Below, in pieces: positions 194-49,600 of a DNA stretch of 64,000 bases. Below the pieces are notes generated by a model. The model searched no databases, was not told where the DNA came from, and saw only the letters and a list, made by a program, of their open reading frames with translations. Source of the DNA: a virus; IMG/VR virus record IMGVR_UViG_3300045988_096784; one strand, given 5' to 3'. Positions within the stretch are counted from its first letter, which is position 1. Every line of letters begins with the position of its first letter. A program made the position numbers and the translations under genes.

Positions 194-268
194 TGGTACT
201 CGGTACGGGAGTCGAACCCGTGTTTCTGGCGTGAAAGGCCAGCGTCTTTACCACTTGACTAACCGAGC
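194..268 (-). tRNA. tRNA-Glu (anticodon TTC)
   Basis: Hand-folded cloverleaf: 7-bp acceptor with one G-U, D arm with GG, anticodon loop CTTTCAC, T arm ACGGG-TTCGACT-CCCGT, CCA encoded. Confidence 0.75.
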
Positions 269-520
269 ATATCTGCACTTTTAATAATCTCTTTCTGTCT
301 TATTTAATAATAGCCATTGTTTATTATAAGCTATACTGTCATTACTATATATAAAGAGAATATTAACTTATCTTCTAGTTGGTGAACAGCGGCGTCACTG
401 AAAACCACCTATTTCTATTAAGGACGGAAATAGGAATGCCCTATTGTTCTTATGGCAATGAAATCAATAAAAACCTGTAATCATTAGACGGTATCATATA
501 TAATTATTAGTAGATACCTA

Positions 521-596
521 TGGTGGAACATACGAGGGTCGAACTCGTGACCTCCTGCTTGCAAGGCAGGCGCTCTCCCAACTGAGCTAATGCCCC
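521..596 (-). tRNA. tRNA-Ala (anticodon TGC)
   Basis: GGGGCATTAGCTCAGTTGGGAGAGC...CTTGCAA loop...GGTTCGA; classic tRNA-Ala features, CCA encoded. Confidence 0.85.
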
Positions 597-775
597 ATAT
601 TGTGATTAAGATGATTGGTCGTGTCAATCAAGGAGAACTACGCTCTAATTTATCGGCTACTACAGTCCAATGTGCCAGGCATCAACCTAAAAGGGACACC
701 GCATTGCTGATTCGCTTGCGCGCTATCGCTGCCTATATACGACTTGCGATACTTTGTTCTTTCTTAACCTTACAT

Positions 776-810
776 AAATATTATACAATATTTTTTATTG
801 TTTTTCAAAT
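776..810 (-). promoter_or_regulatory. class-A early promoter (minus orientation TTGAAAAA-N-TATAAT); one of about 14 copies
   Basis: Minus-strand reading TTGAAA-17 nt-TATAAT. Identical >35-bp copy at 1595-1630. Related copies at about 1851-1893, 2205-2250, 2452-2500, 6941-6985, 7895-7950, 8235-8285, 10421-10460, 13405-13450, 21330-21365. Each sits 30-60 nt upstream of a minus-strand start or tRNA. Confidence 0.6.
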
Positions 811-887
811 TGGCGATGACGACGGGGTTTGAACCCGTGACCTTCGGCGTGACAGGCCGACGTTCTAGCCTACTGAACTACGCCACC
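811..887 (-). tRNA. tRNA-Asp (anticodon GTC)
   Basis: Acceptor GGTGGCG/CGTCATC with two G-U pairs, anticodon loop CTGTCAC, T arm ACGGG-TTCAAAC-CCCGT, CCA encoded. Confidence 0.8.
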
Positions 888-991
888 GTATAAGGCGAGG
901 AAGGGTCGTACGCACCCCGTGTGCTTTGCGCCTCGTCGTTCACATATATCACACTTCTGACTTATTGGGCATGGGAAATCAGTAGAAACCA

Positions 992-1078
992 TGGTGCGCA
1001 TGATGGGACTTGAACCCATACGCTCTTACGAACACGAGCACCTCAAGCTCGCCTGTCTGCCGATTCCAGCACACGCGC
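992..1078 (-). tRNA. tRNA-Leu (anticodon GAG), long variable arm
   Basis: Acceptor GCGCGTG/CATGCGC, anticodon loop TTGAGGT, 16-nt variable arm, T arm TGGG-TTCAAGT-CCCA, CCA encoded. Confidence 0.8.
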
Positions 1079-1235
1079 ATATTTCTATGGTATTGATCGA
1101 GTTCCAAGGCTTCCTCTTTTAATACTGACTAGCCATCATAAATGCTTGGCCATTTACGACAAGAAATCCAGTCTTCAACTACGGGCCATAGCTCCGCCGG
1201 TTATATGGGTTTAAGACAATGTCACCGGAACCATC

Positions 1236-1312
1236 TGGTGTTCCCGGCGGGAGTCGAACCCGCAACATCATGGTTCTAAACCACGCGTGTCTGCCTATTG
1301 CACCACGAGAAC
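1236..1312 (-). tRNA. short-variable-arm tRNA with anticodon TAG (reads CUA); identity unclear
   Basis: Acceptor GTTCTCG/CGGGAAC, anticodon stem CGTGG/CCATG, loop TTTAGAA (U33 and A37 present), 5-nt variable region, T arm GCGGG-TTCGACT-CCCGC, CCA encoded. Plus strand cannot fold as a tRNA. Confidence 0.6.
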
Positions 1313-1438
1313 ATAAAAGAGCAACTATTTGTTTCAGAACTACCCGTCGCTCTATTGGGCCAGCCTATTATTTTAGTTCGCAGTGGACGAATTGAGAGTT
1401 TAGGGTTAAAGTCGCGGCACTACTCACAAACTCGACTT

Positions 1439-1515
1439 TGGCGGGAAGGGTGGGGCTCGAACCCACGACATCTTGCTTAACAGGCAAGCGCTCTACTCTT
1501 CTGAGCTACCGACCC
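1439..1515 (-). tRNA. tRNA-Asn (anticodon GTT), acceptor stem with two internal mismatches
   Basis: D arm GCTC-AGAAGAGTA-GAGC, anticodon loop CTGTTAA, T arm GTGGG-TTCGAGC-CCCAC, CCA encoded; acceptor GGGTCGG vs CCTTCCC mispairs at positions 4 and 5. Confidence 0.5.
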
Positions 1516-1594
1516 AAACTCAAGGCAGAATAAATAAACTTTCTTAAACCAAAAATAAGTGTTTTATTTAATAAAAGATTTGCTGTGTCTGCCT

Positions 1595-1630
1595 TATATA
1601 AATATTATACAATATTTTTTATTGTTTTTC
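1595..1630 (-). promoter_or_regulatory. class-A early promoter, exact duplicate of the 776-810 element
   Basis: ataaatattatacaatattttttattgtttttcaaa identical at both sites, flanking the tRNA cluster. Confidence 0.6.
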
Positions 1631-1835
1631 AAAAAAGATTCAGTTGTTTAGCTTCATCATAAGAAATACCAAAGGTATCCTTGAAAGTTGCGTTAAAGTT
1701 CTCCCACTGTTCCTCGGGGCCACCAACTCCACCATTCATAAGCCAAATAGCATCACAAATACTATCCTCATTTTTATAACAAGAAAGAGCCTCGGCCGCG
1801 AGTTGTGCAAGATATAACTTCTTATCCATATGCAA
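1629..1835 (-). CDS. hypothetical protein (68 aa)
   Basis: ORF with AAGGAAG ribosome-binding site and class-A promoter at 1851-1893. Confidence 0.55.
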   Translation of the reverse strand: MHMDKKLYLAQLAAEALSCYKNEDSICDAIWLMNGGVGGPEEQWENFNATFKDTFGISYDEAKQLNLF

Positions 1836-1914
1836 CTTCCTTTCTTACTTTCTATAAATATTATATCATATTTATAAAAATTTTTCAAATGTTTTCAAGA
1901 CGCTAGCTATTTAG

Positions 1915-1987
1915 CTCCGGAAATCGGATTCGAACCGATAATTTTTCACTTTGAGTTGAAATGTCTTAACCATTTGACTATTCTGGA
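1915..1987 (-). tRNA. atypical tRNA-like gene with 8-nt anticodon loop (ACUCAAAG); anticodon ambiguous (CAA or UCA depending on register)
   Basis: Perfect T arm ATCGG-TTCGAAT-CCGAT, acceptor with one A-C mismatch, perfect 5-bp anticodon stem TTTCA/TGAAA enclosing 8 nt, CCA not encoded. Confidence 0.4.
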
Positions 1988-2049
1988 AATAGATTTGCTG
2001 TATGCGTCTTATAGCAAGAGGGCCCTCCTATTGGGTCTGTCCTCTTAAA

Positions 2050-2125
2050 TGGTACTCCGAGCTGGACTCGAACCAAGCATCAAGCGATTATAAGTCGCCC
2101 GTTCTAACCTTTGAACTACCGGAGT
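2050..2125 (-). tRNA. tRNA-Ile (anticodon TAT)
   Basis: Acceptor ACTCCGG/TCGGAGT, anticodon stem GGCGA/TCGCT, loop CTTATAA, T loop TTCGAGT, CCA encoded; T stem slightly imperfect. Confidence 0.6.
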
Positions 2126-5941: not shown

Positions 5942-6088
5942 TATTATCGCTATTTGCGTAATATTATTCGCGGCATTTCATATTATGAATTTTCCAGGTG
6001 GCCCTTCTGGATTTGCAATTTGTACTAAAGTATGGCTAAAAAGAAAGGTATCTACTTTTCGTAGATACCTTTCTAAAGGTTTTAATTA
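5942..6088 (+). CDS. possible small membrane protein (MVFIIIAICVILFAAFHIM...), lone plus-strand ORF in the early block
   Basis: GTG 8 nt after AAAAAGGAG; hydrophobic N terminus; first TAG at 6086-6088. If TAG is sense it would extend to TAA near 6105. Confidence 0.3.
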
Positions 6089-6526
6089 GCCAATTCTGCG
6101 GTAAGCAGAGAGCTTCTTAGACTTTCCACCCTCAGTGGAAGCAGGAACACTTACGGTCTCCTTAGCAACACGATTGACCTCAGGAGAAGCAAGCTGGGTT
6201 AGACGAGCAGTAACCATCTGAGCAGAAATGTCCTCGTCGTTCAAAACCTTTACAATATCATTGATAGTCATAGGCTCATCACCAAGGACTTCATAAATCT
6301 TCTCGCGAAGAGCATCTCCCTCGACCTTCTTAGCAGCAGCTCTCTTAGCGGCAGCAGCAGCCTTATTGTCAAGCAACTCTACCTCGTGCTCGACGAACTC
6401 GCGCAGGCTGTCATAAGTAATTTCACTGGACTCGAGGACAAGACCCTCGTTCTCAGCGACAGACAAAATGCTCAAAATAGCATTATAATTGGCTTTCTTT
6501 GTGGGCTTCTTTACAGTGTTAGACAT
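6086..6526 (-). CDS. hypothetical protein (146 aa), Ala/Lys-rich central segment
   Basis: ORF. Confidence 0.5.
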   Translation of the reverse strand: MSNTVKKPTKKANYNAILSILSVAENEGLVLESSEITYDSLREFVEHEVELLDNKAAAAAKRAAAKKVEGDALREKIYEVLGDEPMTINDIVKVLNDEDISAQMVTARLTQLASPEVNRVAKETVSVPASTEGGKSKKLSAYRRIG

Positions 6527-14998: not shown

Positions 14999-15025
14999 CG
15001 GACCGCGGCGCACGCAAGCGGTCCG
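14999..15025. other. GC-rich hairpin cggaccgc-GGCGCACGCaa-gcggtccg (REP-like family)
   Basis: Related hairpins with GGCGCACGC-type loops at 22200-22226 and 19105-19134; further GC hairpins at 16795-16830, 18223-18250, 20760-20790. Confidence 0.5.
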
Positions 15026-15041
15026 CCCAAAATTTTGCGTA

Positions 15042-15071
15042 AAAAAATCTCCCCCATAAGGGGAGATTTTT
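15042..15071 (-). terminator. rho-independent terminator aaatctcccc-ataa-ggggagattt plus T run
   Basis: Directly after stop of 15074-15424. Confidence 0.6.
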
Positions 15072-15073
15072 CT

Positions 15074-15424
15074 TTAATTGAGAATTATCGGGTATGCCTT
15101 GCGAATAACCACCGTAACCATGGCCGGGGGAGTGTCGCACAAGAAACGGTCATTTCTGATAAAACGACCAATTCCCATACTCTGCCACAAAGTTCGGTTT
15201 ACATCCTCGTATCGTAGGGTATTATACTTGGAAAGTTTGATATGCCAATCATAGATAAAGGAACCATCTTCCGGCATGGTATAATCTAGCGCCCGCTTAT
15301 AATTTCTCGTATGTTCTGCGGCTCTGCGCTCAAGGTCATTTGTCGTACCAATCTTGAGAATATAGCGCCCCTTTTTGTCGATATAATGTCCGACATATAG
15401 GAACTCTTTTCCCCTTGTCTGCAA
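15074..15424 (-). CDS. GIY-YIG domain protein (free-standing nuclease-like)
   Basis: EFLYVGHYIDKKGRYILKIGTTNDLERRAAEHTRNY matches GIY-x10-YIG...R...E arrangement. Confidence 0.55.
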   Translation of the reverse strand: MQTRGKEFLYVGHYIDKKGRYILKIGTTNDLERRAAEHTRNYKRALDYTMPEDGSFIYDWHIKLSKYNTLRYEDVNRTLWQSMGIGRFIRNDRFLCDTPPAMVTVVIRKAYPIILN

Positions 15425-15480
15425 ACTAACTATAACTTGCCTCTTTTCTGGTAGGGCCGGGGTAGGCCGACCCTACCCCG

Positions 15481-15798
15481 TTATTTCTTCGGCTTACGCT
15501 TTTGCACAAGCGTCAACTCGAAACTATCCCCACCAATAGAAAACGCAATCTGTCTTTCCTTATTAGTAATAGACAAATCAGCGATAGAGAATTGACTGTT
15601 TTTTTCCAAAAACTCTGCCAATTCCGCGATTATACCGCCTTTCGTGGCGTTTGGCTTGCGTTGCCGTGTAGTGAACTTATATGCGGTTGGCTGTTTGCGC
15701 GTTCCAGCATGGGCAAACTTTTGAGCGATTTTCGCCTTTTCTGGCGGTAAATCGTATTCAGTCTTTTTATCAGCCTCTACCGCTTTATCATAGGCCAA
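15481..15798 (-). CDS. hypothetical basic protein (105 aa)
   Basis: ORF. Confidence 0.5.
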   Translation of the reverse strand: MAYDKAVEADKKTEYDLPPEKAKIAQKFAHAGTRKQPTAYKFTTRQRKPNATKGGIIAELAEFLEKNSQFSIADLSITNKERQIAFSIGGDSFELTLVQKRKPKK

Positions 15799-15936
15799 TA
15801 AATCTGCCTCCTCTTCCGGCGTTAATTGTAGGGCTTTATACCTTGCAATCCGTTCAGCGTCACTAATACGACTGGATATAATATCACCCCCATATTATAA
15901 GTTAGGGCGGGGATTTTCACCCCGCCCTATACGGGG

Positions 15937-16347
15937 TTACGCCATCTTAAAAAGGGACTTGCCCTTCTTTTCCGTGCAGACCACTCGACCATCGAGTTTC
16001 AACTGCCGCACAAGGGCGGCGACCTTCTGGTTAGAATAGGCCGTCAGATCAGGAATAGCCTTAAAAATTTCCGTGCAAGTCACGCCATCGGTATCGGCAT
16101 CCAGATCAGCCAGATACTCCATAATCTGCTCCTTAAAATTCTCGTTCTCCTGTTGGGTGGGAGTCAGCTTCTTGTCACCGCTAGAGCTATTCTTCTTACG
16201 CAGAAGCTCCAGCTCATGGTCAATGACAGTAATAGCCACCTCGATGGTAGTGCCATACTTTACCTCGCCGTCAGTCAAGAGGGTCTTAATGTCTTCAAAA
16301 CGCTGGGCCTTAGTAATGCGGATTTTCTTCTCGTCCATAATATACAT
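15937..16347 (-). CDS. hypothetical protein (136 aa)
   Basis: ORF; promoter TTGACA-17-TGgTACAAT in minus orientation at about 16395-16425. Confidence 0.55.
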   Translation of the reverse strand: MYIMDEKKIRITKAQRFEDIKTLLTDGEVKYGTTIEVAITVIDHELELLRKKNSSSGDKKLTPTQQENENFKEQIMEYLADLDADTDGVTCTEIFKAIPDLTAYSNQKVAALVRQLKLDGRVVCTEKKGKSLFKMA

Positions 16348-16439
16348 CCTTTCTGGTTTTTAGGACTGTCCTTGTCCTTTGATTATATTGTACCACACTA
16401 TTTGGTACTTGTCAAGAGGTTTTTCAAACTTTTTTCAAG

Positions 16440-16640
16440 AACTTTTGCCCTTTACTTGTTTGCCCTCTCAACCTCCCTTATAGTGTAACACACTTTGGAA
16501 AGTTTGTCAAGCCCTTTTTATTTAATTTTCAAGGTACATTGCCTTGTTTTCTGTACTTATTATAGCACATCTTCAAAGGCTTGTCAAGAGGTTTTTAAAA
16601 GATTTTTGAGAAATTCGCTGTCACTGTCTGCCGTTCGTCT
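16440..16640 (-). promoter_or_regulatory. two additional tandem consensus promoters without a downstream ORF
   Basis: Minus orientation: TTGACAagcctttgaagatgtgcTATAAT and TTGACAaactttccaaagtgtgtTACACT; no coding frame of any size before the next promoter. Confidence 0.45.
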
Positions 16641-16837
16641 CTCTCACTTTCTGAATGTATTTTACCACAAGCAAAAGCAGATTGCAAGCGTCAAATTGCA
16701 CAAAAAATCGGAATTTTGGGAGAGAGTTTTTGTGCAAAATTCTGCACAAAAACGGGACGAAATTTTTGTGCAACATTACCATTGAAAAATTCGGCCCGCG
16801 TCAGCCATCCGCGGGCCGTCGACCTTTTAGATATAAA

Positions 16838-16862
16838 AAAAAATAAGAGGGCTGTAAAGCCC
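16838..16862 (-). terminator. rho-independent terminator aagagggc-tttaca-gccctctt plus T9
   Basis: Perfect stem followed by 9 T in minus orientation after stop of 16865-17050. Confidence 0.65.
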
Positions 16863-16864
16863 TC

Positions 16865-17050
16865 TTAAATATCAATCATATAACTATAAACCATATCCCA
16901 AAGCGGCATATCATTCAGAAGGATATTTACAGTCAAAAGTCCGGTTTCTGTCGGCCCATCAACAAACCATCCCAGCCGCTGCATAAGGTGAATAACCTCA
17001 TAGACATAATCGGGGTCAAGATGGTTAGTGGTAAACTGTCTTGAAAACAT
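16865..17050 (-). CDS. hypothetical protein (61 aa)
   Basis: ORF with AAAGGAAAAG ribosome-binding site. Confidence 0.45.
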   Translation of the reverse strand: MFSRQFTTNHLDPDYVYEVIHLMQRLGWFVDGPTETGLLTVNILLNDMPLWDMVYSYMIDI

Positions 17051-17077
17051 TTCTTTTCCTTTCTATCGGGCGGGGCT

Positions 17078-17902
17078 TTAAGCCCCTACCCGAATTGTCG
17101 GATTATTTTTCAAACTTGCGGAAAGTTGACGCTGAAAATCTGTCATAGGCGGAAACTCTCTTTTATTCTCATACAGGGCCTTTCTCATGGGCTTATGCTG
17201 ACGCATACAATACCACATGATTTCCGCCTCAATCAGAACATCCTCAAGCCCCGTATGACTTTCTTCAAAATCGGTATTGCCAGAGATAAACCGCCACACG
17301 ATTTCCGCAGTCTTGCGGGGGACACCATTAGCCTGGACATATCCGTTTTCCTGACAGAATTTCTTATAAGTGGGCATATTGCAGATAACATCCTGTGTCA
17401 TCTTCATAATATCCCAAATCTCCACGCTGTCAAACGGGAACCAATAACGCCACTTGGAGTAGGTCACATAACGCTGTGTAACTCTCAAGGCATTATCGTC
17501 AAATCTGGCATTATAAGCCGCAACTTCCTTAATGCCGTATCGCTCAATGGTATTGAGCATAGCTTGGCGGATTTCATAAGTGGTAGCCATTTTACGAGTG
17601 CCGGCCCGCAGTTCCTCAATATAGCGGGGAATTTTCCAATTATAATAAGCAGTCCGCATGAGATCCCGCTCGTCATTGAAAATGTCCCGATTTACAAAAC
17701 TTGCAGTTTCGTAAATATTGCCCTTGGTATCTACCACGGCCCAGCCGCAGTCATATACCAATACATTTGACATATCCATACGGACACGCTCGGGGGTGAT
17801 AATCTCCCCATCTTCCCCGATTTCAGCGGGAACGGTTTCGGTTAAAGTGTTGGCGGTTTCAGTGTCAACCACCAGCACATAATGTCTACGCTTATCAATC
17901 AT
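17078..17902 (-). CDS. DnaQ-like 3'-5' exonuclease (DEDDh family)
   Basis: Exo I motif VLVVDTETAN and Exo III motif HTGLEDVLIEAE; perfect promoter TTGACA-17-TGcTATAAT in minus orientation at 17945-17975. Confidence 0.65.
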   Translation of the reverse strand: MIDKRRHYVLVVDTETANTLTETVPAEIGEDGEIITPERVRMDMSNVLVYDCGWAVVDTKGNIYETASFVNRDIFNDERDLMRTAYYNWKIPRYIEELRAGTRKMATTYEIRQAMLNTIERYGIKEVAAYNARFDDNALRVTQRYVTYSKWRYWFPFDSVEIWDIMKMTQDVICNMPTYKKFCQENGYVQANGVPRKTAEIVWRFISGNTDFEESHTGLEDVLIEAEIMWYCMRQHKPMRKALYENKREFPPMTDFQRQLSASLKNNPTIRVGA

Positions 17903-18290
17903 AATCTATCAAGTCCTTTCTTCTCTTCATGGTATTATTATAGCACAATTAAGGCTTGGTGTCAAGAGGAAAAGGAAATTTCGTTGCGATTTATTGCAAG
18001 CTACTGGACGATGGAACGGCCTATTCCAAAGGCGCTCACTCGACTTACGACACAATATAAATTTACTTCCTTTACTTTCTAAGAGTTCGCGACCTCTTGA
18101 TTTCTTGGCCTTCCCCTCTTGACAAATATATAATACCATACTTTCGGGATAATTACAAGATGGCAAATTGCACAAAATTTGCAAGCCAAAATTGTGCAAC
18201 ATCGACAAAAACAAAAACTCGGCTAGCCGCGTGCGCCAGCGAGCCGCCCAAACGATATTAAAGAGTAAAAATAAGAGGGCCGAAGCTCTC

Positions 18291-18984: not shown

Positions 18985-19183
18985 TTTGATTTACTTCCTT
19001 TCTTTAGGTTGATTAAAGTATATCAGATTTCGGGATAGAAAACAAGAGGCAAAATACACAAAATTTCGGTTGGAAAATTGTGCAACTTCTACAAAAGAGA
19101 AAATTCGGCGCGCCACGCACGTTAGCGCGCCGCCGAGAAACCTATTCAAAAAATGGGATAAAAAAGAGGGCTTCGGCCCTCTT

Positions 19184-19645
19184 TTAACTTTCACATATAT
19201 TTGCAAGAAATCTTGCAGAAAGTTTAACCATGTCATGGACAGATTCTTCGTTATTGCTATTTTTATAGCAAATAAAACCAACCTGGTCGCCATTCACAAG
19301 AATTGGTGTAATAAACATACTTTCCCATTTTGTCGCCGAACTGCGAATATCAATCCAGTCATCGGGAACCCTTGTAATTCCAAATGAACGCGGCCCGCAT
19401 AAAATTCCATCATTGTCAAAAATAGCCGCGGCGATTCTGTTAGATGAAAGGGCATTTTGCATTTGTTTAGCGTAAGAGGAAAATTCTCCCATTATAGAAT
19501 ATTTCTTAAAAACTACGCCGCCATCTTCTTCAAGAAAAATCTCTAATGGGTCGCCTTCTCTAATATGAAGGTTTCTACGGATTTCCTTTGGAATTACTAT
19601 CCGGCCCAAATCATCAATACGGCGCACAATTCCAGTAGCTTTCAT
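19184..19645 (-). CDS. AbrB/SpoVT-family transcriptional regulator (swapped-hairpin domain plus C-terminal domain)
   Basis: N terminus MKATGIVRRIDDLGRIVIPKEIRRNLHIREGDPLEIF is the AbrB/MazE/SpoVT barrel signature. Confidence 0.65.
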   Translation of the reverse strand: MKATGIVRRIDDLGRIVIPKEIRRNLHIREGDPLEIFLEEDGGVVFKKYSIMGEFSSYAKQMQNALSSNRIAAAIFDNDGILCGPRSFGITRVPDDWIDIRSSATKWESMFITPILVNGDQVGFICYKNSNNEESVHDMVKLSARFLANICES

Positions 19646-20594: not shown

Positions 20595-20806
20595 GATTTT
20601 TTCTTTCCTTTCTTTCGAGGTGTTTCTGTCTCCCTCTTTCTGATAATAATATACCACAGGCAAAGCAGAAAGTCAAGCGATTTTAGGAAAAAATCTTTCG
20701 TCAGATTGCACAACAATTCGAGCCTAAAATTGTGCAAATTGCCTCTTGATAAAAAATTCCGGCCGCGCCTGTGGTGCACGGCCGGGCGAACGAATAAAAA
20801 AAAAGA

Positions 20807-22027: not shown

Positions 22028-22294
22028 TTTTTTTACTTCCTTTCAAATTCTTTTTGTGGCCTGTCCCTTTGGACAAGTATATAATAACACATGGCAAAAG
22101 GAATGTCAAGTAATTTCGGGAGAAAAACTTTCGTCGAATTGCACAGACTTTCGGTCATATAATTGTTGAAATTGCCGAATAAATAAAAATTCGGGCCGCG
22201 GCGCACGCTGGCGGCCCGGCGAAAAGTCAATATGGAAAAGTGCATAAAAATGACTGGCAATCTTTGTGTAGATTGCCAGTCAAGTATTATTCCT

Positions 22295-23629: not shown

Positions 23630-24122
23630 ACTCTTTTGACTCCCTTTCTTTTTGTGGTGTGGTTCTCTTTTGTTCTGTCTGTATTGTATCAAACCTTTAG
23701 CAGTTTGTCAATACCTTTTTTGAAATTTTTTAATTTTCAAAGTGCCGTGCTTTTGTCTCTGTCCTACTGGACAAGTCCAGTTTACCACCAAAACACTCAC
23801 TTGTCAATAGTTTTTTTGAAATTTCTTTCTCTCTCTCTTGCACAAAATAAATAACATCTTGTTGTGCAGTTTGCACAAACCCTTTACGCGCGTATTCCTT
23901 TAGGGGCGTGCTTTCTTGCTTTCGTACTTTAACGAGTGAAAGAGGCCAACTACACTTCAATACTTTACCATGTGAAAGAGGGGCGCGTATTTTGGGAAAA
24001 ACTGGAAATTTTTTTGTAAAATCGTTCTGCCACGCCATTTCAAAATCTAAATCGACTTTTCAATCTCAATAACGAAAAAGAGAGAAGAACTCACTTCTTC
24101 TCTCCGCATTTACAATATAATC

Positions 24123-24365
24123 TTATCCATCGTCGGTTGCTTCAAAATTAAAAATCAAATTATATCCATCCTCAGTTTCTATCATTTCATATCCTTTTAA
24201 GATATATCCATCCTCTAGTTTAATATTAGTCGCATCAGATCTCCACATTGTAGGAATATACTCTAGCCTTGGATAACGATCGTTCTCCTTTCCGCAAGCA
24301 GTTAACAACAATACGATTAATATTATGTTAATTATAAAGCTGATACTTCTTCCCAATTTTATCAA
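24123..24365 (-). CDS. putative lipoprotein (signal peptide with lipobox LLTAC)
   Basis: TTG start after GGAGG; MIKLGRSISFIINIILIVLLLTACGK. Confidence 0.5.
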   Translation of the reverse strand: MIKLGRSISFIINIILIVLLLTACGKENDRYPRLEYIPTMWRSDATNIKLEDGYILKGYEMIETEDGYNLIFNFEATDDG

Positions 24366-24765
24366 TTTCTTCCGCCTCCATTGGCCTAAATCCAATACAC
24401 GTCAAAGTCCCTTCCGGGCCTTCACGCTCTAACTCCGTCCTACAAGCATCATAAATAAGCCAGTAGTCTTTATTCTCTTCCCATCCTAATTCTTTAGCCA
24501 TTGCAACAGCTTTTAGCAAATCATTCTTATTCTTCGCTCTACAAACTACTTTGGTCTCCGCTTCCGCTATCCAGTTATGGAATAAGTCTCTATCGAGGCT
24601 TATTCCTATATGATACATAAGACCGTCTCTTTCTTTAACAACTTCTTTACTTCCCCAATATAACTTTTCCAAAAGAAAAGCAATAGAAGCATGGGAAACT
24701 TGTGCGGCAAGTTTCCCTGGAGACATATTTAAATCTCGTCTTGCGATAATTAATTGCTTGAACAT
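24328..24765 (-). CDS. peptidyl-tRNA hydrolase, PTH2 family
   Basis: Signature MSPGKLAAQVSHASIAF near the N terminus and about 115-aa core typical of PTH2. Confidence 0.6.
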   Translation of the reverse strand: MFKQLIIARRDLNMSPGKLAAQVSHASIAFLLEKLYWGSKEVVKERDGLMYHIGISLDRDLFHNWIAEAETKVVCRAKNKNDLLKAVAMAKELGWEENKDYWLIYDACRTELEREGPEGTLTCIGFRPMEAEEIDKIGKKYQLYN

Positions 24766-25517
24766 TTTTCCAAAACCTCCAAGAAAATTCTAAAATTGCG
24801 GGAATTGCGGTCTGGAATTGCAAAATAAATATTTGGAATATTATAATTGCGGGCTGCGTTTACGAGCAAGGTAGCGACCGTTGATGGATCTTGCATAAAA
24901 ACACCACAACCCCAGGCTCCCGCGATTAAATTTTCCACTCCTTTAGCCTCGGCAATTTGATACATAAAATTAATTCTCTCTTCCATTATCCTATTGTTTA
25001 GAGAAAGAGGAACTTGCTGATAAGTATGTGCTGTTCTATAATTAGGAGAAGCACAAGTAATTACATCAGCTAATTTTCTACTATCGTCTTTTTCAAAGAC
25101 TACATCAGGAGTATAGATAGCTCTATCAAGATATAGGGCTCGATTCAGTCTCTGTCTATTCCATGCGTAATAAGTATCATCAAAAGCAAGAAGAATAGGG
25201 TAAAGGTTGCTTTCGTGACACAATGCCTCTTCTTGTGCAGAGCTGCCTCCAAGGAAGTAACCACCTGGATGTTTATAGCTTGCATAATTTAAGATCGCAG
25301 TCTTGCTCCGATCGGTTAAACCGAATAGACAGGATACACTATCTTGGTCTTTAAGATAAAAGGTATTATGGTGGGTTTCTCGCGGTTTTTGCGGAAAAGG
25401 AAGATTGGGGCCAAAAATTTCAGAGTTTATAATTGCGCGATCTGTATCTTCCTTGAGTCTCACTTTAATGTCTGCGTAATGCGATTGCGCGTGTTGTTTG
25501 AGCTCTTCTCGTTTCAT
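24750..25517 (-). CDS. bacterial-type poly(ADP-ribose) glycohydrolase-like macrodomain protein (DUF2263/TIGR02452-like)
   Basis: PARG signature GGYFLGGSSAQEE (GGG-X6-8-QEE) plus downstream AGAWGCGVF glycine-rich macro motif. Confidence 0.6.
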   Translation of the reverse strand: MKREELKQHAQSHYADIKVRLKEDTDRAIINSEIFGPNLPFPQKPRETHHNTFYLKDQDSVSCLFGLTDRSKTAILNYASYKHPGGYFLGGSSAQEEALCHESNLYPILLAFDDTYYAWNRQRLNRALYLDRAIYTPDVVFEKDDSRKLADVITCASPNYRTAHTYQQVPLSLNNRIMEERINFMYQIAEAKGVENLIAGAWGCGVFMQDPSTVATLLVNAARNYNIPNIYFAIPDRNSRNFRIFLEVLEKCSSN

Positions 25518-43591: not shown

Positions 43592-43696
43592 TAAATCTAA
43601 TATAATTTACAAATTAGATAGAGAATTAAAAGGCTCTTGAGATATAATTCTCAAGAGCCTTATTTGTTTTATGGGTGATAAAGGAGGAAAAGGATT

Positions 43697-46600
43697 GTGG
43701 CTAATAATAGAAGATTAAATTATTAGATTGGGTTTGATGTTGATACTGCTGAACTTTACAGAGCAGTAAACGAGGCAGTTCAATCTTTAAATAAAATCAG
43801 TGCCGGTTCTAAAGTTACAGCAGAATTGCGACAAGCTTCTTAGTCTGCGCTAGAGTTATCTACTTATATGCATTAGGCATTTAATCAAGGGACTGGAAAG
43901 TTAGATTTAGTAGCTTTTGAAAATAGTTTAAAATCTAGCGGAAGAATTCTTAAAGATTATGCCAACTCGTTAATTTCGATTGGTACCGAGGGGCAAAAGG
44001 CTTTTTTAAATGTAGCAACAGCGATTCAAAAAGCGGAGCTTCCAGCATTGCGCACTGGCAAAATATTTGATTAGTTATGGATTACTATGAAAAATACTAT
44101 GAGATGGCAGATTACCTCCACCGCGTTAAATAGTTTTGTGGAAACCATAGAATCAGCTTATGGGTATGCACAAGATCTAAATGAATCATTAACAAATATT
44201 CGTATAGTTACTGAAAATTCTGCGGAAGACATGGCTAAATTTGCTCAATAGGCAAATGAAGCAGCAAAAGCATTAAGTACAACTACTGTTGAATATAGTG
44301 ATGCTGCTTTGATTTATTATCAATAGGGTCTTACTGAATAGGAAGTTTTAGATAGAACTGAAACTACTATTAAAATGGCTAATGCCGCAGGAATTAGTGC
44401 ATAGACCGCTTCGGATCAGCTGACCGCAGTTTGGAACAACTTCTATGATGGAAGTAAGAGTCTTGAATATTATGCTGATGTAATGGCGCGTTTAGGCGCC
44501 GATACAGCGTCTAGCTCTGATGAAATTTCAGAAGGTATCCAACAATTTGCCTCTGTAGCAGATACAGTTGGATTAAGTTACGAATATGCTGCTTCTGCTC
44601 TTGCTACTGTCACTGCTACGACACGTGAGTCTGCTAATACAGTAGGTACAGCATTTAGAACTTTATTTGCTCGTATCCAAAGCTTAAATCTTGGAGAAAC
44701 TCTCGATGATGGCACTACATTAAATAAATATTCTAAAGCTCTTGAAAAAGTGGGTATTGATATTTTTGATGTTAATGGTGAGATTAAAACTATGGATACC
44801 TTACTTGATGAAATGGGTTCAAAATGGGAGACCTTATCTAATGACTAGTAGATTGCTTTGGCTTAGACCGTAGCCGGAGTTCGCCAATATACTCGTCTTA
44901 TTGCACTTATGGATAATTGGGATTTCTTTTAGGAGAATTTAGCTAGTGCTTATGGAGCAGAGGGATCTCTTTAGGAACAGGCAGATATTTATGCTGAATC
45001 TTGGGAAGCTGCTAGAGATAGAGTAAAAGCATCTGCTGAGGATATTTATGATAGTGTCATAAATCCAGATTTGTATATAAATGCAGATAATGTCTTAACT
45101 CCATTTTTATCTGGTATTGCAGACGCCATTGATGCAATGGGAGGGTTAAATGGTATTTTAGCTAGTACCGCTTTGTTGATTAATGGGATTTATGGAAATA
45201 AGATTGCTGAATCAATGCGTTCTATGGTGGCTAATATAAAAGTTCTATCTGGATTAGAGTAGAATAGAGCGAGAAATTTGTAGGCATCAGCGGCTGAGAT
45301 AGCAACTCAATTAGGCTTAACAAACTCTATGTCTTAGGCTGAAAAAAATCTTTTTAATATTATGGTTGACTAGGCTAATATATAGGGCCAAATAAATAGT
45401 AACTACGACGCGATGGATGCTAATGGTCGTAGATTAATTTAGACAGAACAGTTAAAATTAAGTATTTTGCAAGATTAGTTAAAGACATATTCTTAGTAGT
45501 AGATTTAGTCTAGGGAAAATGTATTAAATCTTAGAGATACTATTTATTTTAATATAGGAATAAAAGATGGCTGGCAAGAAGAAGTTAAAGCAGAAATAAA
45601 TAAATTTAATAGTAGAAATAAAAGTAATCAAATTTAGTTAAATATAAGAGCTAATAGTAACCTTGATAAAATTTATAATGATGTTACTACTTAGTTAACT
45701 AGTTTAATTTAGCAATCTACAAAACTTGATACAGTGTATCAAGAATTTAAAAAACTTGAAAGCGCTGGAACTGCGACTAGAGACAGCCTTCGTAATTTAT
45801 TATCTAGTGTTACGGGCAAAGAACATAATTATGCTTAGATTGAATGGCTGACTTAGCAATTAGAGGGGTTAAAAAATTAGTCTCAAAATGCAAAATTGCA
45901 AATTCGTGAACTTGGGACTATTTTATAGACTATGGGAGCCGATCCAAGAGTAGTTACTTCTTATATTAATGAATTAACAAAATTGGAGTCTGTTACTGCA
46001 AGAACAACTGAACAAGAGGCTCGATATTAGGAATTGTTAGCGAAGTTCCCTAGTGTAATTATAAAAGCATTAATACCAACGAGAGATTGGGCTACAATAT
46101 TGGTTTAGGTTGGAAGTTCTCTTTCTAGTTTAACTATGATTATGAATGCTTTTTAGAGCATTGGAAGAATTTTTTCTGATGAAGATATGACTTCAACTGA
46201 AAGAATTGTAGCTTTGTTTACTTCTCTTGGTATGTTACTACCCTCTATTATTTCTGTTTATAAAACTTTAAATATGTTAACTACTGCTCATGCTGTTGCA
46301 GCAGCGGCGTCCGCCGCGGCAACATCAGTAGAGGCTTTAGCGACAGAATAGCTTGCTATGGCGAAGCAGAAAGCCGCTATGGCTTCCGGCATCTTAACTG
46401 CTGCAATTATGGTAGCAATAATAGCGATTACTGCAATAACAAGTGCTATAAAAGCATAGCATGAAGCAACCTTGGCTGCTGCTTAGGCCTCTATTGATGC
46501 GGCAAATGCAAAAAAAGAAGAAGCACAAGCGAATAGAGAGTTAATTCAATCTACTCAAAATGCCTTATCTACTTATCAAGAAACTGGGGATGGAAAAGAA

Positions 46601-49600
46601 GAGTTAGATGATTTAACTCGTTAGTTGGCTGAAGCGTATGATTTAGAAGGCAGTGCATTAGCTAGACTAAGTGGATAGTATGAAGATTATAATAGTGTTT
46701 TAAAAGCTGCTCAAGAAGCTCAAAGAAGAGAACTTTAGGAAACTTTGTAGTCCCAAGAAGAAGCGTTACGTGCGAATGAAACTCTCATTCTTGAAACCGC
46801 GAGAGAGGGCGTGGGCCACGTATATTTTGGTGGAAATTATGAGGGGTCTTTTACTGGTTTTAATGATTTTTGGAATGGCACCGAAGAAGATACTGCATCT
46901 AATATTCTTCTCAATAATGTGGACGCTTTATATAGTAGTTGGAATGACAATGTAATTGGCGGAAGAAGAAACTTAGCTTTTTCTATAGACCCAAATAATA
47001 CAGAAGAATTAATTAATTTTTATGATCAATTAAATAATGCTATTAATTTGATGAATAATAGCATGACTGTTTCGGAAAGAGGAGCATCTGGACTTTACAA
47101 TGCTGCTGTTGAGTGGCGAGATAAAATGGAAGAGGTTGTCACTCAATATAAAGAAACTAAAGAGAGTATAAATGCTATTCGGGTATAGCTTGGAGAGTTT
47201 AATAATTAGACTATTACCGATGATCAAGTATCAAGTTTAGCGTAGTATAAAATTTGGGTTAACGAAGTTACAGAGGCGCTCACTTCTGCTGGGTATGAAG
47301 GCGAAGAATTAAACGATATAATCAATGATTTAGTATCTACTTCTCTGAATCCTGATATTAGTGGCTTTAAAGATATTTATGACGCAATTTTAGAGGTTGA
47401 AGAATTAGTCAATGATGAAGAATTAAAAAGTAATCTTGAATCTATTTTTACAGATGAAAATTATGATACTTCTGTATTAAATTTATTAAATTGGGGTGCT
47501 TTAACATAGGAGACTTTTTAGGATGCCTATGACAGTGCTAAAAAATATACTGATGCTATTTCCGAAGTTGAAAACGCAACAGAATCTTTAACTACTGCAC
47601 AATCTGCCTTAGAAACTCTTGGAGATAGAGATTTAGATCGAGAAGGATTAGAATCACTTTCTAAAACTGTTGATTGGGGAAATCAAGAAAAAGGAATTAT
47701 TGATTTTAATTAGTTCCTTGCTATGACTTTGGTTGAACAATAGAGTTATTTATAGAGGATTATAAATGAGTCCTATTAGGCTGTCAATAATGGATTAATA
47801 GATTAGATTAGTGAAGCAAAAAAGAGAATAACTGAGCAATAGGATATTTTAAATCAATATAGCGATTCTGAATTAGAACGTGCAGAAAAAGTTGTTTATG
47901 CTTGGGAACAAGTTCGAGAAGCGTATAATGATTATCAAGGTAGCTTAAATAGCGGAGAAGAATTTAATCTTGATAATTATACGATTGATTGGGATTTGTT
48001 AGGTGAAAATTTTGATTGGGAATCTTTTAAAACCGAAACTGCGGATAACGTAGCTAGTGCATTTGAGTATGGGACAAAAGAAGCTCAAGATAAAATTGAT
48101 ACTGTAACTTTAGCAGAGTAGCTAATTAGTAGTTTATAGGATGATATAGATTCTAGCACAGCTTAGTTACAAATAAATGCAGAATTAAATTTTTAGAATC
48201 AATTAGATTAGATTGAAAATTCCGTTGATGGAATTGTAAGTGTATTCGATGCTATTTCTGATGGAGTAAGCTAGACTACCAATGAAGCTGGAGAACAAGT
48301 TTGGAGTTTTAGTAGAGAAGCAGCTAAGGCTATTGAATCTATCTATCCAGGTTTTATAGCTAACGCGGAATTATTAAGGGATGGTACATTTGCTTTAACA
48401 GATGAGATGTATCAAGCATTTTATAATAGTTCTTAGGGGCAATTAGCTGTTGATGCTGATACCAAATCTAATATGCTTCAAAATCTTATTTCTCTTTTAG
48501 AGGCTAAACGAGGAGAGGCTGAAGCTTCGCTTAAGATCGCTGATCAGCTAGCTTCTGGAGAATTAACTATAAACGAATTATCAGATGAGCAGAAGAGAAC
48601 TTTATTAGCGGGATATGTAAATGCTTAGAATCTTGCTAATGGAGAAATGTTAGATGATTAGGTCAATAGTTTAACCGCACAAGATACAAATTAGTAGACT
48701 TTATGGACTAATGTTAGCGAGTATTCTGCTTAGGGCGCGCAGAACATGAGTACTAATGTATAGTTAAATACTCAAAATGTTCTTGCTAATCTTGAAAAAA
48801 TTAGAGATGCGGCATATGCTACTGGAATTCAAGTATCTCAAATAGGAACTGATAATGTTACTAAGCAAGATTTTGATACTTCTGCTGTTTCTTTTGATAG
48901 TTCGGCTGCAACAACAATAGATACGAGTAACGCTGATGATTTCTTAAATTCTTTAACTGCAAATTTAGATGTAGAACCTGTAACCGCAGACGATTTAAAT
49001 ATTTATGGTGATGCTAGTGAGGCACTTGAAGCTAAGCAATCTTAGGCAGTTGGAGAAGCGCTAAGGGCCATTTATTAGGGGAGTATTGATGGGTATAATG
49101 AGGCTATAGCAGCAGCAAAAATAGCCTAGAGCAAATTATTAGATTCTATTGATGGAGCTATAGAAGGAGTAAAGGGAAGTTCAAGTGGCGGAGATAATGA
49201 AGGCACTAAGTATGACGAAGAAGATGAAAAGACTCTAAAGGATATTGAAGATAGATACCATGAAATAACTCGCGAAATTGAGAATTAGAACGATTTATTA
49301 GATGATATTGGAAATAATATAGATAGAGCCTATGGAGCCAATAAACTTCAAGCATACTAGAGAGAACTTCAAGAATTGGAGAAATAGCAAGCTAATTATA
49401 ACAAACTACTTAATGAAGCTGAAACTTATCTTACAAAAGACTAGGCAGATCTTCAAGGGTTGTTTAATAATTCTCTTATTTTTGATGAAAATGGAGAAAT
49501 TGAAGATTATCAAAGTGTTCTTCAATCTATAATAGATGATTATAATAATAATTTCTTGGCAGATTATAATGCTTTTTTAGTTACCTTTAGTAATCTTACT

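What the first reader, a model, noticed from the sequence alone, without database searches (positions are those of the whole stretch)
16440..16860. 420-bp gene-free hub: two orphan consensus promoters plus a cluster of four operator half-sites
Between genes 15937-16347 and 16865-17050 lie three tandem leftward consensus promoters. Only the last has an ORF. The region also holds four TTGCACAA/TTGTGCAA half-sites (16696-16773). Transcripts from the orphan promoters would be short noncoding RNAs (a possible 5-bp hairpin GTACA...TGTAC near the first +1).
Basis: seen in the sequence. Interest (0 to 1): 0.55.

Follow-up and report, generated by a model that had tools for sequence, protein, structure and literature searches.

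The report
Four-promoter control region with operators
This gene-free stretch is the on/off region of a phage early gene. It holds two terminators, a cluster of regulator binding sites and four same-direction promoters that all read into one small DNA-binding-protein gene. It is not a set of small-RNA genes, and its binding-site motif also occurs in Clostridia gut-bacterial chromosomes.

Summary
The window is a TAG-recoded phage, and 16348-16864 is a non-coding gap between two leftward early genes. It holds two intrinsic terminators, four TTGTGCAA-type half-sites and four (not three) co-directional sigma-A promoters with extended -10 elements. No terminator lies between the promoters, there is no Rfam match and no conserved ORF under either genetic code. 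Homologues of the downstream 133-aa winged-helix gene, down to 31% identity, are preceded by 1-4 (mostly 3-4) tandem promoters. The "orphan" promoters are therefore a conserved promoter array for that gene, not sRNA genes.

The half-sites form two units of a recurrent inverted repeat, TTGCACAA-N16/N26-TTGTGCAA. This repeat sits in front of nearly every early transcription unit. Its distance to the -10 element is quantised (31/32, 41/42, 52/53 nt) in the window and in hundreds of related phage promoters. The same repeat with the same N16 spacing occurs in intergenic regions of Clostridia chromosomes, next to transporter and regulator genes. The binding protein is therefore probably a host or host-type transcription factor. 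Its identity and whether it activates or represses remain unknown.

This is an ordinary kind of element, with one moderately interesting lead: a link between phage early promoters and a host regulon.

The parts
16835..16867 (-). Intrinsic terminator 1 of the upstream 61-aa gene (TAAGAGGGCT-TTAC-AGCCCTCTTA followed by T9)
   Evidence: 10-bp stem, T run; inverted repeat I7; read directly.
16784..16817 (-). GC-rich hairpin GGCCCGCG-N9-CGCGGGCC followed by GAATTTTTC: a second terminator that marks the start of the control cassette
   Evidence: Read. The stem is kept by compensatory changes in relatives: L007 GGGTCGCG/CGCGACCC, L019 GGCCCGCT/AGCGGGCC. It is present in L037 and L040. The same hairpin-plus-GAATTTT element precedes the inverted repeats at 20.78, 19.12 and 18.24 kb.
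16742..16773 (.). Distal operator unit: CTGCACAA-N16-TTGTGCAA inverted repeat (half-sites C 16742-16749 and D 16766-16773)
   Evidence: N16 pairs: 5 in the window against about 0.03 expected per spacing. Conserved in all 8 aligned relatives.
16696..16737 (.). Proximal operator unit: TTGCACAA-N26-TTGTGCAA (half-sites A 16696-16703 and B 16730-16737). A ends 8 nt upstream of the P0 -35 element and 31 nt upstream of its -10 element.
   Evidence: The same N26 unit stands in front of P0 in L019 and relatives and in L037. Half-site A is lost in L001.
16659..16687 (-). P0: the operator-associated promoter TTGCAA-17-TGgTAAAAT. Predicted +1 near 16652.
   Evidence: Conserved in relatives. A gap of 31 nt from the half-site to the -10 element is the modal class in 183 distinct promoters of related phages.
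16559..16615 (-). P1: A-rich upstream element plus TTGACA-17-TGcTATAAT (12/12). Predicted +1 near 16552.
   Evidence: A 28-nt direct repeat is shared with P3 (D3).
16482..16510 (-). P2: TTGACA-17-TGtTACACT. Predicted +1 near 16475. Followed by an orphan Shine-Dalgarno-like AAGGGAGGT.
   Evidence: The SD-like run is not kept in L027, L002 and L001.
16387..16435 (-). P3: A-rich upstream element plus TTGACA-17-TGgTACAAT. Predicted +1 near 16380. It has a 42-nt leader with the AGGAC-N7-GTCCT hairpin and the SD sequence GAAAGGA.
   Evidence: The leader is invariant in 8 relatives and nearly identical in L019.
16339..16652 (-). Nested 5' leaders (about 314, 214, 137 and 42 nt) of the downstream gene. 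They are purine/A-rich and C- and T-poor, and contain no terminator.
   Evidence: A 42%, G 21%, T 22%, C 15%; z = -4.4 for the whole leader; 0 compensatory pairs.
16530..16546 (-). Small conserved hairpin CAAGG-N7-CCTTG in the P1 leader. No U tract follows it on the transcribed strand.
   Evidence: The stem is invariant and the loop varies in relatives. A similar hairpin is present in L019.
15937..16338 (-). The target gene: a 133-aa phage-specific protein with a C-terminal winged helix
   Evidence: 131 homologue clusters, no Pfam domain. (AF2 pLDDT 86.5). (winged-helix domains of PerR/Fur/MarR/ArsR/Z-alpha; TM-score normalised to target 0.7-0.8).

Best explanation
Positions 16348-16864 are the transcription-control cassette of an early phage gene, the 133-aa winged-helix protein at 15937-16338. 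Read along the minus strand, it works as follows.

1. Two intrinsic terminators end the upstream unit.
2. Two adjacent inverted-repeat operators, TTGCACAA-N16-TTGTGCAG and TTGCACAA-N26-TTGTGCAA, bind a dimeric or tetrameric regulator.
3. The promoter-proximal half-site lies 8 nt upstream of the -35 element of promoter P0, centred at about -48. This is the same helical register used at almost every other early promoter of this phage and its relatives.
4. Three further near-consensus, extended -10, operator-less promoters (P1-P3) follow at 100, 77 and 95 bp, each preceded by an A-rich upstream stretch (a long UP-like element at P1 and P3, a shorter one at P2).
5. All four promoters are read by host sigma-A RNA polymerase. 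With no terminator between them, they produce nested transcripts that all run into the same gene.

The region therefore combines one regulated promoter with three constitutive ones, to drive very high early expression.

Shown: the anatomy, the statistics, the conservation, the phasing and the absence of terminators and ORFs.

Inferred: that the promoters fire, that the repeat is protein-bound, and who binds it. The regulator is most likely a host (Clostridia) or host-type factor, because the same repeat with the same spacing is found in intergenic regions of Clostridia chromosomes. Because the operator-associated core promoters are already strong, the factor more likely modulates or represses them than activates them. 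That last point is weakly supported.
For: Promoters:
- 12 pattern matches in the window against 0.12 expected, three of them in the gap.
- no terminator-like site on the minus strand between P0 and the gene.

No RNA gene or ORF:
- No Rfam match.
- No conserved ORF under standard or TAG-sense translation.

Conserved array:
- The architecture (terminator, GC hairpin, inverted repeat, P0, then 1-3 consensus promoters, then the winged-helix gene) is kept from 98% down to 31% protein identity, with promoters about 50, 145-175, 220-290 and 320-390 nt before the ATG.
- The non-coding 16301-16700 stretch is 74-96% identical per 100-bp bin to L001/L027 (88-96% across 16301-16600). That is as high as or higher than the flanking coding DNA at 71-91%.

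Operator:
- The 8-mer occurs 13 times against 2.2 expected.
- N16 pairs: 5 against about 0.03 expected per spacing.
- The gap from half-site to -10 element is quantised: 31/32, 41, 52/53 nt in 16 related loci, and 30-33 or 41-42 nt in 75 of 131 sites from an independent IMG/VR scan.
- A regulated promoter followed by a consensus promoter recurs at window 23807/23711 and four times in L037.

Host link:
- 92 of 120 genome hits are Clostridia.
- 77 of 94 Clostridia sites are intergenic, against 8 of 29 in other taxa.
- Of 11 additional, unseeded pairs in those loci, 6 have N16 spacing.
- Neighbouring genes are transporters, LacI, ECF-sigma, PadR and TetR genes.

Strength of operator-associated promoters: mean 5.3 of 6 matches in the -35 element, and 53% have a perfect -35.

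Precedent: phi29 has tandem early promoters A2b/A2c with p4 sites and boxes for the host factor Spo0A (PMC2731898).
Against: - There are no transcript data, so promoter activity, +1 positions and read-through are all predicted.
- In bacterial genomes the repeat-to-promoter distance peaks at 28-29 nt rather than 31-32. Host and phage sites may not be used identically, or may not be bound by the same protein.
- The 314-nt leader folds better than shuffles (z = -4.4), and all 5 substitutions at paired positions keep pairing. An RNA-level function of the long leader is therefore not excluded.
- Half-site A is lost in L001. In L040 the repeat at P0 is replaced by three TGTAAC repeats, so control of P0 is evolutionarily labile.
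- It is not obvious why a regulated promoter would be useful upstream of three strong unregulated ones.
Confidence: 0.7

Rival explanations
1. One reading: P1 and P2 (and P0) are orphan promoters that make short non-coding RNAs of 60-100 nt with their own function.
For: - The promoters are real and strong, and no ORF follows them.
- The inter-promoter DNA is highly conserved among close relatives.
- The segment after P2 folds somewhat better than shuffles (z = -2.6).
- A CAAGG-N7-CCTTG hairpin after P1 is conserved.
Against: - No terminator follows any of the three on the transcribed strand.
- The hairpins are followed by A-rich, not U-rich, sequence.
- No Rfam match.
- Inter-promoter sequences are not conserved in L019, L037 and L040, although the promoter array is.
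- The module number varies from 1 to 4.
- No compensatory pair was found.
Confidence: 0.07
2. The inverted repeat is bound by the phage's own 133-aa winged-helix protein. The region would then be an autoregulatory loop, and the repeat would mark a phage-encoded early regulon.
For: - The gene sits directly under the region in every relative.
- A winged-helix fold is predicted.
- Residues at the start of the recognition helix (Q104, K105) and in the wing (K125, G126) are invariant across homologues. This would fit an unchanged DNA motif.
- The family is the commonest DNA-binding family near phased repeats: 15 of 70 loci.
Against: - The family appears phage-only (131 clusters), yet the same repeat with the same spacing is intergenic in many Clostridia chromosomes.
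- Only P0, not P1-P3, would be autoregulated.
- The protein has diverged to 31-50% identity while the motif stayed identical.
- No direct evidence links the protein to the site.
Confidence: 0.2
3. The repeat is bound by an AbrB/SpoVT-type tetramer, either the phage's 153-aa SpoVT-like protein (19184-19645) or the host homologue. Each quasi-palindromic 8-mer (TTGyrCAA) would be contacted by one swapped-hairpin dimer.
For: - PF04014 at E = 9.6e-12, plus a weak SpoVT_C match.
- The protein belongs to a host-type family, which would explain the shared phage and host motif.
- The half-sites are internally near-palindromic, and the two heads tolerate N16 or N26 spacing.
- Homologues lie near repeats in 10-11 diverse loci.
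Against: - The gene is missing from the 12.8-kb loci of L003 and L007, which keep the repeats. The contigs of L003, L004, L005 and L007 are also absent from the top 80 of 237 relatives found.
- Only 1 of 120 bacterial repeat loci has an AbrB-like gene nearby, and the repeat there is not upstream of it.
- No AbrB or SpoVT consensus resembling this motif is known to me.
Confidence: 0.15
4. The long, purine-rich, structured 5' leader is itself the functional element. It could be an mRNA stabiliser, a ribosome or RNase decoy, or a riboregulator, and the promoters only set how much of it is included.
For: - z = -4.4 for the 314-nt leader.
- All five variable paired positions keep pairing, and most variation falls in unpaired columns.
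- The first 35 nt or so after each +1 are 67-79% purine. P2 carries AAGGGAGGT with no usable start codon.
- SD-like sequences in 5' leaders, even without an associated start codon, stabilise mRNAs in Bacillus (PMC3997798).
Against: - No compensatory change was seen. RNAalifold avoids variable columns by construction.
- The long-range helices pair the -10 regions of P2 and P3, which are conserved for other reasons.
- The SD-like run after P2 is lost in L027, L002 and L001.
- The leader sequence is not conserved in L019 or L037.
Confidence: 0.1
5. The region is a replication origin or partition site, with repeated protein-binding sites in a gene-free, AT-rich gap.
For: There are four repeated sites in 78 bp, and the gap has no gene.
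Against: - The same repeat occurs at seven or more promoters across 10 kb, always at a fixed phase to a -10 element.
- There is no GC-skew inflection here; the skew turns at about 26-28 kb.
- GC content is about 0.41-0.43, not unusually AT-rich.
- No DnaA-box-like sequence or AT-rich unwinding stretch was noticed when reading the sequence.
Confidence: 0.02

Closest known systems
Phage phi29/Nf central control region (tandem early promoters A2c/A2b, p4 sites, host Spo0A boxes)
   Same: A virulent Firmicutes phage with tandemly organised sigma-A early promoters. Regulator sites lie upstream of and next to them. Binding sites for a host global regulator gate early transcription, and action on the alpha-CTD/UP-element zone upstream of -35 has been documented (PMC2731898).
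   Different: There is no divergent late promoter in this region (no plus-strand promoter). No p4 or p6 homologue was seen. There are four promoters rather than two. The site is a widely spaced inverted repeat (N16/N26), not a 7-bp 0A box. Binding and its effect are untested here.
Tandem early promoters A1-A2-A3 of coliphage T7 (from memory)
   Same: Several strong host-polymerase promoters about 100 bp apart, all pointing the same way and all reading into the same early genes. No gene or terminator lies between them.
   Different: The T7 promoters lie at the genome end and are not paired with an operator. Here the array sits inside the early region, in front of a single small gene, and is preceded by a regulated promoter.
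Upstream-bound (class I-like) regulators such as CRP, and widely spaced inverted-repeat operators such as BirA/bioO or B. subtilis PurR PurBox pairs (from memory)
   Same: The site lies upstream of -35. Its distance to the core promoter is allowed only in steps of about one helical turn (31/32, 41/42, 52/53 nt). The two half-sites are separated by about 16 bp.
   Different: The half-site sequence matches none of these. Centre-to-centre spacing is 24 or 34 bp. The core promoters are already near consensus. No protein has been identified.
STAB-SD / polypurine 5' mRNA stabilisers of Bacillus and phage SP82
   Same: Purine-rich, Shine-Dalgarno-like runs with no associated start codon lie within about 10-20 nt of the predicted 5' ends (PMC3997798).
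   Different: Only the run after P2 is a strong SD match, and it is not conserved in three relatives. No stability data exist.
PeSL (promoter-early stem-loop) cassettes of T4-type phages (from memory)
   Same: A repeated terminator-plus-promoter cassette flanks small variable genes. Here the 61-aa gene upstream is swapped in L007, which is 98-100% identical over most of the rest of the compared region, with one junction at the GC hairpin.
   Different: The sequences are unrelated. These cassettes also carry an operator. Their role in recombination is only suggested by one mosaic junction.

Membership tests
Sigma-70/sigma-A promoter with extended -10 | -35 TTGACA, 17+/-1 spacer, -10 TATAAT and TG at -15/-14, in the orientation of a downstream gene | tested here: met
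   P1 12/12, P3 11/12, P2 10/12 and P0 9/12, all with TG. Twelve pattern matches against 0.12 expected. Elsewhere in the window the same pattern lies directly upstream of SD-plus-ATG genes.
Sigma-70/sigma-A promoter with extended -10 | Mapped transcription start site | not testable with these tools
   No transcript data. +1 positions are predicted 7 nt after the -10 element.
Rho-independent terminator | GC-rich hairpin followed by a U tract, with the stem kept by compensatory change | tested here: met
   16844-16867 plus T9. 16793-16817 plus GAATTTTTC, with compensatory stems in L007 and L019.
Independent small-RNA gene | Own terminator or defined 3' end downstream of the promoter | tested here: not met
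   No terminator-like site on the minus strand in 16348-16660. Hairpins are followed by A-rich sequence.
Independent small-RNA gene | Conserved structure with covariation, or a match to a known family | tested here: not met
   No Rfam match; best score 26.5 bits against a 56-bit threshold, and that hit lies on the terminator. None of 74 predicted pairs shows a compensatory change. Short transcripts have z = -0.3 to -2.6.
Transcription-factor operator (inverted repeat) | Dyad symmetry, over-representation, fixed position relative to promoters, conservation in relatives | tested here: met
Transcription-factor operator (inverted repeat) | Demonstrated binding protein and regulatory effect | not testable with these tools
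   Candidates only: a host Clostridia factor, the 133-aa winged-helix protein, or the SpoVT-like protein.
phi29-type early/late switch region | Divergent late promoter lacking a -35 element, activated from the same sites | tested here: not met
   No plus-strand promoter-like site lies in 16348-16864. The late genes start at about 27.25 kb on the plus strand.
STAB-SD / polypurine 5' stabiliser | Strong SD-like sequence near the 5' end without a start codon, conserved | tested here: inconclusive
   AAGGGAGGT follows P2 in the window and in L003-L007 but not in L027, L002 or L001. The purine bias is general.
Recoded (TAG-sense) protein gene | An ORF that opens when TAG is read as sense and is conserved in relatives | tested here: not met
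   Minus-strand frames in the gap contain no TAG and are unchanged. Open frames differ between relatives. Plus-strand open frames reflect the A-poor composition and are interrupted by 1-nt indels.

The most novel reading that the evidence does not exclude
A large superclade of gut Firmicutes phages, including TAG-recoded ones, places the operator of a so-far unnamed global regulator of Clostridia in front of essentially every early transcription unit. The operator is TTGCACAA-N16-TTGTGCAA. It is found intergenically next to sugar and peptide transporter genes and regulator genes in Oscillospiraceae, Acutalibacteraceae, Ruminococcus, Faecalibacterium and Lachnospiraceae. In the phages it sits in a fixed helical register. 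The host's physiological state would then gate the start of the lytic programme, as Spo0A does for phi29. Some of the phages additionally encode their own copy or antagonist of the factor.
Probability: 0.35. Interest if true: 0.65.

Novelty: new member of a known kind. Interest (0 to 1): 0.4.

Why it matters
On its own the region is an ordinary phage promoter/operator cassette, and the small-RNA idea can be dropped.

Its value lies elsewhere. It exposes a clear, testable regulatory code for the early genes of an uncultured, stop-codon-recoded phage group: a constitutive promoter class, an operator-linked promoter class, and strict spacing rules. The operator motif is shared with chromosomal intergenic regions of the likely host class.

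This gives three practical leads:
- a way to predict early transcription units in these genomes;
- a host-range clue (Clostridia, mainly Oscillospirales-type families);
- a concrete hypothesis that host physiology controls phage early transcription in gut anaerobes, which can be tested with a few EMSA and reporter experiments.

Tried and rejected
- Megablast of 15000-18000 against GenBank phages found no match.
- Rfam, at gathering threshold on the whole window and at E-value threshold on 16200-17000, found only tRNAs and sub-threshold noise.
- TAG-sense and standard ORF searches in the gap and in 8 aligned relatives found no conserved ORF.
- Pfam and PHROGs on the flanking genes were mostly empty.
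- PDB sequence search with the 133-aa family profile found nothing significant.
- BFVD fold search returned only uncharacterised phage proteins.
- A literature search for the raw 8-mers returned only primer-type hits and was not informative.
- I tested whether an AbrB/SpoVT gene lies next to the repeat in bacterial genomes, as autoregulation would predict. Only 1 of 120 loci had one, and the repeat was not upstream of it.
- I tested whether TCCCGAAA, seen in several promoter spacers, is enriched in the window. It is not: 3 against 1.6 expected.
- I tested whether operator-linked promoters have weak -35 elements, as activator dependence would predict. They do not: mean 5.3 of 6 matches.
- The replication-origin reading was rejected on skew, composition and the promoter-linked distribution of the repeat.
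Full report
**Context**

The window comes from a phage that reads TAG as a sense codon in its late genes. Treating TAG as sense doubles the length of open frames. It also produces a plus-strand late block from 27.25 kb onward that includes a 2913-codon ORF with 101 in-frame TAGs. The minus-strand genes between 2.9 and 26.9 kb are almost free of in-frame TAG.

The finding lies in this standard-code early region. The closest cultured relatives of the neighbouring exonuclease-like gene are Enterococcus phages (39% identity). The TAG-recoded gut phage phAss-1 (30%) is also a relative; its authors predict a Clostridia/Eubacteriales host (PMC10607447).

**Checking the observation**

All are on the minus strand:
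- 16587-16559, 12/12;
- 16510-16482, 10/12;
- 16415-16387, 11/12.

Each has the TG of an extended -10 element. The combined pattern occurs 12 times in the window against 0.12 in shuffles, and three of those lie in this gap.

The half-sites are at the stated positions. Three are exact and one (16742-16749) has one mismatch. The 8-mer occurs 13 times against 2.2 expected, with 12 copies in the early region.

- a fourth promoter, P0 (16687-16659, TTGCAA-17-TGgTAAAAT), directly downstream of the half-sites;
- two terminators at the right edge, namely 16844-16867 plus T9, and a GC hairpin at 16793-16817 followed by GAATTTTTC.

The GTACA/TGTAC hairpin exists but overlaps the predicted +1. It is destroyed in four relatives.

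**Is anything encoded here?**

- No Rfam family reaches threshold.
- Reading TAG as sense opens nothing new on the transcribed strand.
- Open frames differ from relative to relative, and 1-nt indels interrupt them.
- The long plus-strand frames are a by-product of an A-poor plus strand.

**Are the upstream promoters orphans?**

The evidence says no.

- No terminator-like site exists on the minus strand between P0 and the start codon.
- The small hairpins are followed by A-rich sequence.
- The short inter-promoter transcripts fold about as well as shuffles (z = -0.3, -1.1, -2.6).

The comparative evidence is stronger. I fetched 28 loci through the exonuclease gene, 8 through the downstream gene, and more distant ones through homologues of the 133-aa protein.

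Close relatives align across the whole gap. Per 100-bp bin, 16301-16700 is 74-96% identical to L001/L027 (88-96% across 16301-16600). That is at least as high as the flanking coding DNA at 71-91%.

A more distant relative, L019 (53% identity for the protein), has the same order of parts: terminator, GC hairpin with a compensatory stem change, CTGCACAA-N26-TTGTGCAA, four tandem promoters, then the homologous gene. Its inter-promoter sequences are different. L037 (43%) has the repeat, P0 and two consensus promoters. L040 (46%) has P0 and one.

Across 32 distinct upstream regions, from 98% to 31% protein identity, the gene is preceded by 1-4 (mostly 3-4) extended -10 promoters. They lie about 50, 145-175, 220-290 and 320-390 nt before the ATG. 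TTGTGCAA half-sites lie upstream of the most distal promoter in most of them.

A conserved array whose copy number varies, in front of one conserved gene, is what a tandem promoter set looks like. It is not what RNA genes look like. P1 and P3 share a 28-nt A-rich upstream stretch, which fits duplication of a promoter-plus-UP-element module.

**The operator**

The four half-sites form two units of a recurrent inverted repeat. On either strand the unit reads TTGCACAA-N16-TTGTGCAA.

- At up to 2 mismatches the window holds five N16 units against about 0.03 expected per spacing. They lie at 16742-16773, 18168-18199, 19054-19085, 20706-20737 and 23838-23869.
- An N26 unit lies at 16696-16737. It is one helical turn longer.
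- Each unit lies just downstream of a GC hairpin ending in GAATTTT and just upstream of a minus-strand promoter.

The distance from the promoter-proximal half-site to the -10 hexamer is quantised.
- In the window and 16 related loci it is 31/32 nt (28 distinct cases), 41 nt (7) and 52/53 nt (7).
- An independent exact-match scan of IMG/VR returned at least 119 stretches. In it, 75 of 131 sites have an extended -10 element at 30-33, 41-42 or 51-53 nt.

This places the proximal half-site near -48. Displacement is allowed only in whole helical turns, which is the signature of a protein that must face RNA polymerase.

The 70 phased viral loci share early genes with the window: the exonuclease in 19, a HAD-like protein in 16, the 133-aa family in 15 and the SpoVT-like protein in 10. 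They are therefore one broad phage superclade. Within it I counted 183 distinct promoters of the 31/32 class.

In this clade an operator-linked promoter is often followed about 90-120 bp later by an operator-less consensus promoter. Examples are window 23807/23711 and four cases in L037. The region under study is the most elaborate example of that rule.

**Who binds the repeat?**

Three candidates were examined.

1. *The 133-aa protein under the region.* It has a confidently modelled C-terminal winged helix (pLDDT 86.5). It has invariant residues at the start of the recognition helix and in the wing. The family looks phage-only.
2. *A 153-aa SpoVT/AbrB-like protein at 19184-19645*. It is missing from the fetched loci of near-identical relatives that keep the repeats, and their contigs are absent from the best 80 matches for it.
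   - Of these, 92 are Clostridia: Oscillospiraceae, Acutalibacteraceae, Ruminococcus, Faecalibacterium, Eubacteriales and Lachnospiraceae.
   - In Clostridia 77 of 94 sites are outside long open frames. In other taxa only 8 of 29 are, as expected of chance hits.
   - Of 11 further, unseeded pairs in those Clostridia loci, six have N16 spacing.
   - The adjacent genes are chromosomal: MFS and PTS sugar transporters, family-5 solute-binding proteins, MalK-type ATPases, and LacI, PadR, TetR and ECF-sigma genes.

A motif with the same half-site, the same ninth base and the same spacing in host chromosomes argues that the binding protein is a host factor or a member of a host family. I rate that at about 0.55-0.6.

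One caveat applies. In bacteria the best promoter sits 28-29 nt from the repeat rather than 31-32 nt.

I could not name the factor. Nothing I recall (Rex, CRP/FNR, CcpA, CodY, Spo0A, LexA, AraR, BirA, PurR) matches it.

**Sign of regulation**

Operator-linked core promoters are strong on average: 5.3 of 6 matches in the -35 element, 53% with a perfect -35, all with TG. They should fire without help.

A site centred at about -48/-72 occupies the zone where operator-less promoters of this phage carry A-rich UP-like sequence. Binding there could block alpha-CTD contacts or hold polymerase at the promoter. Both mechanisms are documented for phi29 (PMC2731898).

I therefore lean to negative or conditional control, with low confidence. 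P0 itself is the weakest of the four promoters (TTGCAA/TAAAAT).

**RNA-level alternatives**

The full 314-nt leader folds better than shuffles (z = -4.4). The few substitutions at paired positions are compatible with pairing. However, none of 74 pairs shows a compensatory change, and the alignment method avoids variable columns by construction.

The leaders are purine-rich and poor in C and T. P2 is followed by an orphan AAGGGAGGT. SD-like sequences in 5' leaders, even without an associated start codon, are known mRNA stabilisers in Bacillus (PMC3997798). This run is lost in three relatives. I keep this as a minor, non-exclusive possibility.

**Verdict**

The sequence observation is confirmed and extended. 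The small-RNA interpretation is not supported. The operator reading is supported and generalised.

The region is a terminator / operator / four-promoter cassette that drives a small winged-helix protein gene. It is a new member of a known kind of phage control region.

The most interesting by-product is that its operator belongs to a motif shared between a large gut-phage superclade and Clostridia chromosomes.

Noticed in passing
window 27252-63000 (+) versus 2900-26900 (-): TAG is read as sense in the late, plus-strand genes, for example 43682-52423 (2913 codons, 101 in-frame TAGs; probably the tape-measure protein). The minus-strand early genes are almost TAG-free. ARAGORN reported eight tRNA genes in this window, none with a TAG-reading anticodon.
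   Followed up: partly
window 194-2125 (-): A cluster of eight tRNA genes: Glu, Ala, Asp, Leu x3, Asn and Ile-TAT.
   Followed up: no
window 16865-17050 and L007/L001/L027: The 61-aa gene just upstream of the region is replaced by unrelated sequence (50-56% identity). This holds even in L007, which is 98-100% identical over most of the rest of the compared region. One junction of the swap lies at the conserved GC hairpin. The repeated terminator-operator-promoter cassettes may therefore act as recombination joints.
   Followed up: partly
window 19184-19645 (-): A phage-encoded SpoVT/AbrB-like regulator (PF04014 at E = 9.6e-12, weak SpoVT_C match). It is present in some close relatives (L006, L001, L027) but was not found for the contigs of L003, L004, L005 and L007.
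   Followed up: partly
window 24328-24765 and 24750-25517 (-): Adjacent early genes for a PTH2-type peptidyl-tRNA hydrolase and a microbial-type poly(ADP-ribose) glycohydrolase (PARG/macro) protein. These are possible host-takeover or counter-defence functions.
   Followed up: no
window 6086-6526 (-): Judging by a shared N-terminal sequence motif and a weak DprA_WH match, this looks like a second, divergent paralogue of the 133-aa winged-helix protein (not confirmed by alignment). Related phages often carry two copies of the family (23 ORFs in 15 loci).
   Followed up: partly
window leaders after promoters 23807, 22109 and 16415 (about +5 to +25): Short GGACA/TGTCC inverted repeats lie at the very 5' end of several predicted transcripts, for example AGGACAAGGACAGTCCT at about 16361-16377. 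They could be 5' stem-loops that protect the mRNA, or a second operator.
   Followed up: no
L040 7770-7810: In one lineage the inverted repeat in front of P0 is replaced by three direct TGTAAC repeats at 11-bp spacing. Other promoters in the same locus keep TTGCACAA-N16-TTGTGCAA.
   Followed up: partly
L161-L280 (bacterial genome loci): TTGCACAA-N16-TTGTGCAA is an intergenic motif in many Clostridia genomes. It lies next to MFS/PTS sugar transporters, family-5 solute-binding proteins, MalK-type ATPases, and LacI, PadR, TetR and ECF-sigma genes. It looks like the regulon of an unnamed global regulator.
   Followed up: partly
window 18142-18149, 19028-19035, 22114-22121 (-): TCCCGAAA occurs in or next to the spacer of three operator-linked promoters, and similar CCCGAAA strings recur in relatives. 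The count in the window is not above chance (3 against 1.6).
   Followed up: yes
window 15074-15424 (-): A T5orf172-domain protein, weakly matched (E = 1.6e-4), lies in the same early gene block downstream of the winged-helix gene.
   Followed up: no
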